A stretch of 6,965 nt of DNA from Octopus sinensis (taxonomy: Eukaryota), in assembly GCF_006345805.1 (NCBI RefSeq), contig NW_021829157.1, positions 1-6,965 on the forward strand, in the 5' to 3' direction. Below are positions 3,108 through 6,965 of this stretch, in pieces. A model generated the notes under the pieces. That model did not search any database. It worked only from the letters and a program-made list of their open reading frames with translations, and was not told the origin of the DNA. Numbering within the stretch: the first letter of the stretch is position 1; every line of letters begins with the position of its first letter. Made by a program: the position numbers and the translations under genes.

Positions 3108-3578
3108 TACATTGTTTTGTCTTGGTATAAAAGATGGGCTACAGCAAGTATTCTGCTCAATACCACAGATTTGCTTGTCAGTTGTTTGACCTCAGGTAGT
3201 TTGAGCATGTTTTAGTAGCTGACGATATGAGCATCTCTGATCACAAGCAGAAGTAGTGGGGATGCATCATAGCCGTGTGTTGAGAGGAATTCTTAGAGGT
3301 TTGGATAATTAACCTTTGGAAACATGGATGGTTCTTTCAACATCCTTAAACAATCCTTATTCAGGGACCTTTTGAGCGGGATGGGCTACTCAACCAGAGG
3401 AAAATTCTAACTGGGCCCCACCTGCAAGGTCATGCGTTGTTTCTCTTGATATGAGATCACCATGTCACGCACATATGGCTGTGATGCATGTGCCTAGTGT
3501 ACTCTTATCAGACGGGTAGTCATGATGGGTATACTGGGCTTCGTATATTTTACCCCCAGTGTCACTTTGACACTGCTC
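3107..3578 (-). mobile_element. unclassified interspersed repeat abutting (AAT)n; possibly a non-autonomous derivative of a microsatellite-targeting (R4/Dong-like) non-LTR element
   Basis: Sharp-edged block, GC-richer than its flanks, ending in (ATT)n when read on -. Resembles an octopus interspersed repeat from recall (unverified). No credible ORF. Strand and class are inference. Confidence 0.5.
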
Positions 3579-3735
3579 AGCAGTATTTCGTCCGTCTTTA
3601 CGTTCTGAGTTCAAATTCCGTTGAGGGTGACTTTGCCTTTCATCTATTTGGGGTCGATAAAATAAGTACCAGCTGAGTACTGGGCTCGAAGTAATCGACT
3701 ATCCCTCTTCCCTAAGTTTCAGGCCCTGGTAGCTA
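3574..3735 (+). mobile_element. tRNA-derived SINE, 5'-truncated, with Meta-domain-like core
   Basis: B box GAGTTCAAATTC (3607-3618); core GACTTTGCCTTTCATCTATTTGGGGTCGATAAAATAAGTACCAG; 3574-3624 is 42/51 identical to 4001-4051. Confidence 0.85.
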
Positions 3736-3961: not shown

Positions 3962-4051
3962 GGGCGACGAGCTAGAAGAATCGTTAGGCATTGGACGAAA
4001 TGCTTAGCGGTATTTTGTCCGTCACTACGTCCTGAGTTCAAACTCCGCCGA
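3961..4051 (+). mobile_element. tRNA-like head of the same SINE family, 3'-truncated
   Basis: GGCGACGAGCTAGAAGAATCGTTAG (degenerate A-box region) and B box GAGTTCAAACTC (4034-4045); direct similarity to 3574-3624. Confidence 0.8.
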
Positions 4052-4578: not shown

Positions 4579-4602
4579 TATATATATATATATATATATA
4601 TA
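4579..4602. repeat. (TA)12 microsatellite at the PLE boundary
   Basis: Directly visible; composition changes abruptly at 4603. Confidence 0.95.
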
Positions 4603-5090
4603 ATACTACAAAATTAGAGAATGGAGGAAGAATTATCTTACTTAATCAGTAAAACATCAACTACCGATGATACTCAATCCATACTTAATACACCATTACA
4701 TATGAGTAAAGGAAATACATAAAATGAAATGAGATATACAGTAATAGTAACAAGATAAGAGATATAAGTAAAAAATTTTCAAATAATATGCAAATAAATC
4801 AAAACTGACAGCTGTTTCGGCAGTGAGGACAGTCATACCTCATTTAACCTATAAGCCATAAAGGCAGGTATAAATTGAGGCATTAACAAGGATGCCCCAC
4901 GGCCTCTTCAGAGAATTAAATTAAATTTGTTATAATAGTGAAAAATATTATACAATCAATACATATAAATATAAAAATAAAAAATGTAAAATATAAAAAC
5001 TTATACATCATAAAGCTACACTTATATAATATAATACACATTTGTACAAAAAGGAAGTAAACAGAACAAAATAAAAACAAAATATGCACC
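4603..5090 (-). mobile_element. Penelope-like terminal region (pLTR/UTR) carrying a hammerhead ribozyme
   Basis: Contains a PLE-type hammerhead, is T-rich on -, ends directly in (TA)12 and lies next to a PLE GIY-YIG remnant. Boundaries are inferred. Confidence 0.65.
4799..4919 (-). ncRNA. type I hammerhead ribozyme (PLE minimal helix III, extended helix II)
   Basis: On -: CUGAAGA (4911-4905), helix II GGCCGUGGGG...CCUCACUGCC (4904-4819), GAAA (4818-4815), C-AGCU-G, UC, with predicted cleavage between 4807 and 4806. Helix III lies in the palindrome ACAGCUGU. Helix I is weak: 2 bp, a UU/UU loop, then 4 bp. Confidence 0.85.
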
Positions 5091-5098
5091 ATACCTGT

Positions 5099-5712
5099 CA
5101 GAGATAATATAAATGAAATAGATCATACTACTACTACCAATACTAGTACTAGTGATAGGAATATAGCCGATAATGTGAAATTAACTCATTCGTTGATTTT
5201 GGGTTTGGATGATGATAACAATTGTAACACTTATAATGTGAATAGTAGTATAGGGGTGTTGTCCAATTTTAGATTTCCTCATTCTTTAATCTTTGTAATT
5301 TCAGAAATAAAAATAAATGTGTATTTGGTAATCAATGCCTCAGGAAGGAGGTAGTTTACCAATGCACTGTAGATACACAATGAGTAGTAGGGTGTATATC
5401 GGGGCAACTATGAATAGCAAAACAAAGATGGAATTATCACCGATATACTTTTAGGAATAAAAATAGAATGTACTCTACAGGGCTAAGTGCATACATTTGG
5501 GAGCTTAAAAATAAGAACTTAGATTTTAGATTAAACTGGAAAATACTAACTTCAGCACCTGTGTATATATGGAAAAATAAAAAATGCTCTCTATGTATTA
5601 ATGAAATTTTCTTCATTATTAAAGCGGGTCGGCAAATTATTAACAACATTAATGAAAAAAACTTCTTTTGTATTATCATAGGCTACCGTTCACCTTTTCT
5701 AGATTCAAATAG
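5099..5712 (+). pseudogene. degenerate C-terminal part of a Penelope-like element ORF: N/T/S-rich linker plus GIY-YIG endonuclease
   Basis: Manual translation across frameshifts: CNFRNKNKCVFGNQCLRKEVVYQCTV (from 5294; VVY 5351-5359) / SSRVYIGATMNS (YIG 5395-5403) / KQRWNYHRYTFRNKNRMYSTGLSAYIWELKNKNLDFRLNWKIL...KKCSLCINEIFFII...IINNINEKNFFC / HRLPFTFSRFK* (TAG 5710-5712). Matches the PLE endonuclease pattern C-x-C..C..C, xVY, YIG, K-x-R-xxx-H, LSxYIWxLK, CxLCxxE, N..E..CxH. No RT motifs seen. Confidence 0.88.
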
Positions 5713-5762
5713 AACTTAGCACTTCCACTATTATTATTTTTTAACTCCCTTCTTAACTAAAT

Positions 5763-6965
5763 ATACCTGTGGTCTTCTATAATTTCTAAGTATACATTTT
5801 ATATATTTATAATTTTATAATTTTTATAGCTACATTTGTATAATAATTAATGGATGTGTCTAGTATTATTGGTTTCTTGTTTTTTGTATGTGGGTTTTTG
5901 TTTGTTTTTTAAGAGAATTGCAATATGACATAAATAACATATTCATTTTGGTACTTGCCTTGTAATGTGTGATTTTTGAAGTTTTCCAATATTGCATAGC
6001 ATATTGCAGTAATATATATATCTTGGGTAGATACCTAGCTCTGGATAATGTAATGATATGTATAATATGTAATATATGAGAGCCTTTTGTGAGTTTGGTG
6101 GGTTTAGGTTGAGATTATAGGTTTTTTGTATGTGTTTATTTGAAGGTTTTATTGTATATTTGGTCTTTTTGTACTCACCTTAATTTGTATCTTATGCTAT
6201 TCACTGATAAACTTTTTCATTTTTTCATTTTCTTTACATGCATTATGCTTTATAATTATTACTAGCCTCATATATTTAGTTTATATCTATAGTCTTCTGG
6301 ATCTGTACTTTAAACTATCCTTCCATACATATTTTACTTCAACAATATAAAAATATATTCACTCTATTTATTTTTTATTTATTTTCCATTTTATTGTAAT
6401 ATTATCAATTTTTGCATCTAGTCTTCTATTTATTTATTTATTTGCCTTTTTAAGTGTAGATGTTTACATACATATCAAGTCATCTAATTTGCTATCTATT
6501 TATTTTTACTTTATTTACTTATACTGGTGGTTTTGGTAGTTTTATACATACATATCTATCATTTATTTTTATTTAATTTTAATAATATATGAATAATATA
6601 CTGGTTTGTACTTTATAATTATGTGTATAACCGTATTTATTCCTTCGTATTTATTCCTTCTTATTTATTATATCTCTTTCATCTTAAGTCTTTAAATATA
6701 AATTTTATTAAAATTTTTGTGATGTTTCATAAGCGTTTACATTAATACTTCCCCTTCTATTCTTTAATGCCTAAACTGGTATATTATGGCACTATATTTA
6801 TTAAGTTAATAAGTGACTTATTTATAATTTTAATTAATATATATGTTATATTTTATATTTTATAATTTAGCGTACTTAAAACCATAACAAACTTACGATA
6901 AATCTAACAACCGTATGTTTACTCTGCAACAAACCGGTGTTATAAATTTTAAGTTACCCCATGAA
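5763..6965. other. very AT-rich, strand-asymmetric (T-rich on +) segment, probably repeat/PLE-derived, unassigned
   Basis: Uniform composition with no long microsatellites, unlike the flanking host DNA. No ORF in the track and no recognisable motif in partial manual translation. Confidence 0.3.
6632..6659. repeat. perfect 14-bp tandem duplication CGTATTTATTCCTT x2
   Basis: 6632-6645 is identical to 6646-6659. Confidence 0.95.

What the first reader, a model, noticed from the sequence alone, without database searches (positions are those of the whole stretch)
4799..4919. PLE hammerhead ribozyme with a minimal palindromic helix III and an 86-nt structured helix II
Seen: the complete catalytic core on - (CUGAAGA ... 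GAAA C AGCU G UC^AG). Helix II folds by eye into a long bulged rod: GGC/GCC, GUGGGG/CCUCAC, GUU-AUGCCUCA/UGAGGUAUGAC, UUUA-ACCU/AGGUUAAA, capped by GCC-UUUAU-GGC. Known: PLE terminal repeats carry minimal type I hammerheads whose palindromic helix III favours dimeric cleavage, and helix II is usually short. Inference: this long arm would be missed by length-limited motif searches and may be a family-specific domain (RT binding, dimer stabilisation or an ADAR substrate). The weak helix I suggests this copy may be decayed.
Basis: partly seen in the sequence, partly recalled or inferred. Interest (0 to 1): 0.72.

Follow-up and report, generated by a model that had tools for sequence, protein, structure and literature searches.

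The report
Long-armed hammerhead of young Hydra retrotransposon
This is a hammerhead motif, predicted to be a self-cutting RNA, at the tail end of a recently active Penelope-like jumping gene; one arm is 85-100 bases long instead of about 25 at most, keeps its base pairs as the family evolves, and likely serves as a folding and docking scaffold for the element's own protein.

Summary
The motif is real. Core, 8-nt palindromic helix III and 86-nt helix II lie at the stated coordinates (z -4.3), and Rfam misses them. It sits 205 nt from the end of an inverted 3' fragment of a Penelope-like element with Hydra-clade motifs. A full-length copy with an open 960-aa frame exists elsewhere in the genome. 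The window copy is not decayed: it differs from the commonest copy by one extra base, and the weak helix I is a family trait. Across sister subfamilies (914 pattern matches), helix II keeps pairing on internal branches (20 of 23 changes, against 14 of 25 on terminal ones; p=0.027) and is 84-91% identical where flanks are 31-67%. Long arms are the rule here: 13,983 matches with 32-70 nt against 1,217 short. The published descriptor allows about 24 nt. I found no ADAR footprint. No copy starts at the cut site (0 of 125), and back-to-back insertions end at two fixed sites about 173 nt apart. Cleavage is untested. I found no long helix II for PLEs in print, but one key paper was not available. This scan has reported the same class before on other DNA. 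Verdict: new variant of a known kind.

The parts
4579..4602 (.). (TA)n target microsatellite at the left end of the insertion
   Evidence: Sequence; nearly all arm ends of the young subfamily abut (TA)n
4601..5085 (-). Inverted, 5'-truncated arm: the last 485 nt of the element, ending at the 'short' 3' end about 205 nt past the predicted cut site
   Evidence: 95% to positions 5532-6016 of the full-length copy L037; same boundary in the other loci
4805..4913 (-). Type I hammerhead motif from helix I to helix I (2 Watson-Crick pairs: 4913/4805 and 4912/4806)
   Evidence: both pairs present in 42 of 42 aligned copies and not required by the search pattern
4905..4911 (-). Core CUGAAGA (C3-A9)
4819..4904 (-). 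Helix II, 86 nt (85 in the family): 12-bp basal stem, internal loop, central stem of about 16 bp, short apical hairpin
4884..4892 (-). 5' side of the internal loop of helix II; U13, U16, U17, G18, U19 and A21 (helix II numbering) are kept in 40-42 of 42 copies; candidate recognition site
   Evidence: paired partly in some subfamilies, open in others
4807..4818 (-). GAA, 8-nt palindrome ACAGCUGU (helix III, no loop) and C17; predicted cut between 4807 and 4806
   Evidence: intermolecular 8-bp duplex -11.1 kcal/mol
5085..5712 (+). 3' part of the RT-endonuclease frame of the second, sense arm (linker and GIY-YIG-type domain), frameshifted in this assembly
   Evidence: Profile hit 5288-5671, E 1.6e-30; 95.5% to L037 with 64 gap letters against 22 mismatches, so some breaks may be assembly errors
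5713..6965 (+). AT-rich 3' UTR of the sense arm, cut by the end of the contig about 850 nt before its own hammerhead would come
   Evidence: Matches L037 positions up to 4857 of 6016; the window is the whole contig

Best explanation
The motif is the 3'-terminal type I hammerhead of a young Penelope-like retrotransposon with Hydra-clade motifs, and its long helix II is a conserved rod that likely acts as a folding and docking scaffold for the element's own RT-endonuclease, which would let a weak ribozyme cut as a dimer only at some stages of the cycle. Shown: identity of the element, copy number, structure, selection on helix II along the master lineage, two fixed insertion ends downstream of the motif, and no copy beginning at the cut site. 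Inferred: the monomer folds with the core trapped and needs a partner RNA (helix III palindrome) and probably protein; the template for insertion is uncut or re-ligated RNA; reverse transcription starts at two sites about 200 and 373 nt past the cut site and copies through the motif, giving the back-to-back arms of which the window holds one. Untested: cleavage and protein binding.
For: Element: open 960-aa frame in L037 with RWR, DKT, CxCX5C, CxxC and CxH motifs, as defined for Hydra; (TA)n targets. Young: top 40 hits 98-100%; 125 copies share an exact 34-nt stretch. Selection: 89.6% of 1507 cells paired, 11 of 36 pairs with a change on both sides, covariation 0.168 against 0.122 shuffled and at most 0.080 slid; unconstrained RNAalifold recovers basal and central stems; 20 of 23 stem changes on internal branches keep or gain a pair against 14 of 25 on terminal branches, Fisher p=0.027; helix II 84-91% identical between the youngest and the three 86-nt copies compared while the five flank blocks nearest it are 31-67%, GC 47% against 12-25%; six positions of the internal loop kept in 40-42 of 42. 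Weak monomer: the active fold costs 4.9-8.4 kcal/mol over the minimum-energy fold in 7 of 7 copies tested. Precedent: the anole PLE hammerhead cut only when the element's protein was added, and insertion used uncut RNA and two RT start sites (PMC11167929). Ends: 18 of 21 back-to-back pairs had both ends called, and all 18 have one short and one long end; 0 of 125 copies lack C17 before the downstream stretch; L037 and L040 run past one 5,570-nt unit and across the cut site twice.
Against: No cleavage or binding data. The shuffle control ignores relatedness, and the tree is one ladder, so there are only 23 internal events and p is modest. The flanks are AT-rich and mutate by slippage, which inflates the contrast. 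The distal arm was remodelled (97-100 nt in older, 85-86 nt in younger subfamilies), and unrelated families carry unrelated arms of 44-120 nt, so no universal binding motif exists. The dn151-200 flank block is also conserved (72-90% in five of seven comparisons). The cofold minimum of the youngest subfamily pairs C17 with the core of the partner, an inactive form. No conserved pairing between the helix II loops and helix I or the flanks stood out. In the anole element the binding region mapped downstream of the hammerhead, near the RT start sites.
Confidence: 0.5

Rival explanations
1. The long arm is tolerated bulk: it grew by drift in an element that is expanded everywhere, and selection only keeps it folded so that it does not disturb the core.
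For: The unit is 5,570 nt against under 3 kb for most described Hydra elements; the protein has Asn-rich insertions (960 aa against about 700-800 in its nearest homologs); the 3' UTR is about 2.4 kb; arm length and sequence differ between families; the tip was shortened without harm.
Against: Sequence identity in the arm, including loop positions that are open in most subfamilies, far exceeds the flanks; a deletion to a short hairpin would also be folded, yet long arms outnumber short ones about 11 to 1.
Confidence: 0.3
2. The motif no longer needs to cut: the hammerhead fold is kept as a structural element of the RNA-protein particle (for example to pair two RNAs through the palindrome), and cleavage is negligible in the youngest subfamily.
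For: 0 of 125 copies begin at the cut site; helix I has 2 pairs; the core is trapped in the predicted monomer and dimer minima; catalytic mutants did not impair insertion of the anole PLE in vitro.
Against: A re-ligated circle would leave the same genomic picture; N17 varies only among C, A and U where the pattern allowed it, and the two helix I pairs are kept in 42 of 42 copies; arms of one insertion mostly share variants, which does not call for two different RNAs.
Confidence: 0.14
3. The arm is kept as a substrate for A-to-I editing.
For: It is a long, AU-rich double-stranded rod, and heavy editing in cephalopods is known (recalled, no call).
Against: Sense-strand A>G and T>C changes in helix II are balanced: 17 against 16 on internal and 8 against 7 on terminal branches; 0 private A>G in helix II of 39 young arms; no such difference in helix II in contigs of the runs laid (contigs drop rare variants).
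Confidence: 0.04
4. The window copy is a decayed or chance match.
For: The frame in the sense arm is frameshifted, and helix I is weak.
Against: One-base difference from the commonest copy; 914 matches against 0 in the control.
Confidence: 0.02

Closest known systems
Hammerheads of Hydra-clade Penelope-like elements (Craig et al. 2021, PMC8557442; seen: passages, section 11, supplement parts 1-2 of 59 with Files S1 and S2)
   Same: Type I topology near the 3' end in sense orientation, short palindromic helix III, (TA)n targets, inverted 5'-truncated arm, protein motifs.
   Different: The Hydra rows of File S2, the octopus family Hydra-1_oBim included, have stem II of 3-7 bp and loops of 3-10 nt; here 85-100 nt. 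Unit 5.57 kb against mostly under 3 kb; the end extension is about 173 nt against 30-40 bp. Longest arms in that table are in two spike-moss PLE-X elements (9 bp plus a 35-nt loop).
Minimal hammerheads of metazoan PLEs (Cervera and de la Pena 2014, PMC4209133; seen: parts 1-2 of 4, passages, passages of supplement file 2; file 1 not searched)
   Same: CUGANGA/GAAA core, palindromic positions 15-16, G10.1-C11.1, low predicted monomer activity; a 2-bp helix I also occurs in the Drosophila virilis Penelope motif.
   Different: Their 'larger' helix II is 6-8 bp; the descriptor caps stem II at 7 bp and loop 2 at 10 nt; the mollusc examples seen (Lottia, Crassostrea) are short.
PAc, the Poseidon element of Anolis (Frangieh et al. 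2024, PMC11167929; seen: parts 1-2 of 4)
   Same: Two internal RT start sites downstream of the hammerhead that define a 'tail'; AT-rich target; no ends seen at the cut site.
   Different: Other clade; short helix II; tail of 30-40 bp; start sites inside the frame, whereas here both ends lie upstream of the first ATG (about 310 and 140 nt).
Non-LTR retrozymes (Cervera and de la Pena 2020, PMC7229834, passages; Li et al., bioRxiv 10.64898/2026.07.22.740005, part 1 of 5)
   Same: Type I hammerhead with weak palindromic helix III.
   Different: Those are short non-coding tandem units; this motif belongs to a coding, autonomous-type element.

Membership tests
Type I hammerhead ribozyme | Core C3-A9, G12-A14, A15.1-U16.1, H17 | tested here: met
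Type I hammerhead ribozyme | Helix II closed by G10.1-C11.1 and supported by covariation | tested here: met
   the first pairs were fixed by my search pattern, the inner pairs were not
Type I hammerhead ribozyme | Helix I of 3 or more pairs beside the core | tested here: inconclusive
   2 pairs in 42 of 42 copies; 3-4 in some older subfamilies; weak distal continuation
Type I hammerhead ribozyme | Tertiary contact between loop 2 and helix I | tested here: inconclusive
   Only 4-bp matches at background level; non-canonical contacts cannot be seen this way
Type I hammerhead ribozyme | Self-cleavage after N17 | not testable with these tools
   Only contigs were available
Published PLE min-HHR descriptor / Rfam hammerhead models | Stem II 3-7 bp, loop 2 3-10 nt; Rfam match | tested here: not met
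Hydra clade of Penelope-like elements | Single frame, RT followed by C-terminal GIY-YIG-type endonuclease | tested here: met
   960-aa frame with YRDD and VVY...YIG; Pfam gave no significant family
Hydra clade of Penelope-like elements | RWK and DKT motifs | tested here: met
   RWR (RWK in 7 of 9 homologs aligned) and DKT
Hydra clade of Penelope-like elements | CxCX5C linker, CxxC and CxH around the conserved E and N | tested here: met
Hydra clade of Penelope-like elements | Insertion into (TA)n; pLTR and inverted arms | tested here: met
Hydra clade of Penelope-like elements | Generally under 3 kb (descriptive, not diagnostic) | tested here: not met
   Unit 5,570 nt
Hydra clade of Penelope-like elements | Placement inside the clade in an RT tree with the published references; lack of IFD and CCHH | not tested
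   Reference proteins were not loaded; assignment rests on motifs

The most novel reading that the evidence does not exclude
The long helix II and the palindrome form a family-specific packaging and dimerisation module, like a retroviral packaging signal built on a ribozyme. It loads the RNA onto a dimeric RT-endonuclease for paired initiation at two sites 173 nt apart and switches cleavage on only in the particle. About 15,000 such motifs in this genome would be a missed class of protein-gated hammerheads.
Probability: 0.17. Interest if true: 0.8.

Novelty: new variant of a known kind. Interest (0 to 1): 0.5.

Why it matters
What hammerheads do for Penelope-like elements is an open question (stated in PMC8557442). 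Here a recently active family with an open full-length frame, a ladder of subfamilies and a selected accessory arm gives a direct test: shorten or scramble the arm and measure cleavage, binding and insertion. The arm also shows that standard descriptors and Rfam miss most hammerhead-like motifs of this genome (about 15,000 long against 1,200 short pattern matches), so counts of animal ribozymes and statements that an element 'lacks' one may be too low.

Tried and rejected
Rfam: no hammerhead hit. Pfam: no significant family for the 960-aa protein. Decay of this copy: rejected. ADAR footprint: none. Watson-Crick contact from helix II loops to helix I or the flanks: only background 4-mers. Genomic footprint of a cut 5' end: 0 of 125; this would miss junctions that happen to place C before the site. 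Two different RNAs per insertion: arms of one insertion share their variants in L002, L010, L013, L020, L039, L043, L059 and L155, and differ at single informative sites in L023 and L034; not decisive. An RT-like trace that I thought I saw on the - strand of the UTR: no profile hit. Expression: no RNA holder listed on record; runs guessed to be RNA hold contigs of the element, which cannot show strand, ends or level. PLE frame beside other long-armed families: 6 of 55 loci (L081-L135) had a same-strand endonuclease hit within 1.5 kb, covering three other families; the rest had none, as expected for truncated copies but unproven (profile from 60 of 93 proteins). Arms of 123-152 nt: 20 matches, 0 control, not followed up. 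Literature: seven searches found no long helix II for PLEs; 'long helix II' in PMC13725137 means 6-8 bp (passages); PMC13282606 has no ribozyme or hammerhead mention; PMC3088659 passages show none; PMC6765202 passages only review dimers. Lunse et al. 2017 (RNA Biol 14:1499), the main survey of PLE hammerhead variants, is not held and was seen only as a citation; it, subscription papers and unseen supplements could hold the variant.

Full report
Observation. Helix II folds as drawn, with z -4.3 and no shuffle of 200 as stable. Rfam finds no hammerhead. The window is a whole small contig of a 2.72-Gb animal genome; the host is likely an octopus or relative (inference; the nearest named homologs are from Argonauta hians).

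Context. The motif had 1,159 first-look candidates; the 40 scored are 98-100% identical. Longer stretches of 20 copies gave one full-length element, L037, with an open 960-aa frame. It carries RWR, DKT, CxCX5C, CxxC and CxH, the motifs given for the Hydra clade. The unit is 5,570 nt with a 3' UTR of about 2.4 kb. The window holds a back-to-back insertion in (TA)n: an inverted 485-nt end with the hammerhead (4601-5085, -) and a sense arm from the endonuclease into the UTR (5085-6965, +), cut by the contig end. This layout is the one described for PLEs.

Not decayed. 59 of 71 hits in the loci then held are one identical sequence; the window differs by one extra base, which contigs of 4 of 4 runs lack. 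The two-pair helix I is therefore a trait of the family.

Selection on the arm. A pattern that fixes only the core and the closing pair found 914 copies (control 0) in several subfamilies with arms of 82-100 nt. I aligned 42 of 58 distinct sequences; the 16 left out were near-duplicates or copies with private indels or substitutions, which raises the share of paired cells but works against the branch contrast below. Of 36 pairs, 11 show a change on both sides; covariation is 0.168 against 0.122 in shuffles and at most 0.080 when slid; the shuffles ignore relatedness. On a tree from about 600 nt around the motif, which is a single ladder, I counted changes at 22 basal and central pairs, leaving out the two most distant copies: internal branches kept or gained a pair in 20 of 23 events, terminal branches in 14 of 25 (p=0.027). 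Examples are U-A to U-G to C-G and A-U to G-C. Between the youngest and the three 86-nt copies compared the arm is 84-91% identical, the five nearest flank blocks 31-67%; against the 97-100-nt subfamilies 54-58% against 16-52%; the block near the short end is also conserved. Six positions of the internal loop are kept in 40-42 of 42 copies. The tip was remodelled: 97-100 nt in older and 85-86 nt in younger subfamilies. Invariance of the core in this alignment is by construction and is not counted as evidence.

Genome-wide. Matches to CUGANGAG-N-CGAAACNNNNGUH: 1,217 with N 5-29 (control 41), 13,983 with N 30-68 (control 112), 267 with N 90-120 (control 69). These are pattern matches, not validated ribozymes. 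Among 26 distinct arms from the first 30 loci, 23 have a palindromic helix III, which the pattern did not ask for. Three other long-armed families lie downstream of a related endonuclease (6 of 55 loci).

Mechanism. In 7 of 7 copies tested the active monomer fold is 4.9-8.4 kcal/mol above the minimum, mostly because the core pairs with helix III; the palindrome gives an 8-bp duplex between molecules, but in the youngest subfamily the cofold minimum is an inactive form. Cleavage is therefore predicted to be weak and to need a partner or protein, as reported for other PLE hammerheads. Arm ends cluster at two sites: of 52 young arms, 28 end 190-215 nt and 19 end 355-400 nt past C17; in 18 of 21 back-to-back pairs both ends were called, and each has one short and one long end, about 173 nt apart also in older subfamilies. 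This matches the two RT start sites of the anole element, with a much longer tail. No copy among 125 begins at the cut site, and two copies exceed one unit, so the template is uncut, multimeric or a re-ligated circle; the data do not tell these apart. I infer that the arm is a scaffold recognised by the element's protein (confidence 0.5); tolerated but folded bulk is the main rival (0.3). A>G and T>C changes are balanced, so there is no ADAR footprint.

Novelty. Hammerheads in Hydra elements are known, with stem II of 3-7 bp and loops of 3-10 nt, inside the descriptor's limits. Seven searches found no long arm for PLEs; Lunse et al. 2017 could not be read. Earlier notes of this scan describe the same class on other pieces of this genome and in other genomes; a search by this sequence found no earlier window. 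They are unchecked and are not counted as support. Verdict: new variant of a known kind, interest 0.5.

Noticed in passing
L037 (G000:C4:78515600-78525500), 8006-493: Full-length copy: inverted 1.3-kb arm, direct terminal repeat, open 960-aa frame with Asn-rich insertions, 2.4-kb 3' UTR; about twice the usual Hydra length.
   Followed up: yes
L037 6242-6070 and 672-500: The 173-nt tail between the two fixed ends is structured (90-nt windows at z -3.9 and -2.8), with hairpins just inside each end; candidates for RT start signals.
   Followed up: partly
G000:C1:105634457-105636603 and many others: Most short-armed matches listed belong to one tandem repeat of about 353 bp with a canonical small hammerhead, retrozyme-like.
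   Followed up: no
L118, L119; G000:C1:22011359-22013211: Some long-armed motifs (44-51 nt) occur in tandem units of about 400 and 535 bp, possibly retrozymes with long helix II.
   Followed up: no
G000 places listed; L083, L096, L099: An older family has arms of about 105-135 nt, longer than this one.
   Followed up: no
L037 6410 and 5931: Contigs of four runs leave the element at the same two places with the same foreign sequence: a sister family or one expressed truncated copy.
   Followed up: no
window 3574-3620 and 4001-4047; 130-300 and 415-575: Short dispersed-repeat fragments that look like common SINE pieces (label recalled, from no call); the first pair is 85% alike.
   Followed up: no
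window 4601-6965: Differences from L037 are mostly single-base gaps in runs, suggesting an unpolished contig; frameshifts here may not be real.
   Followed up: partly
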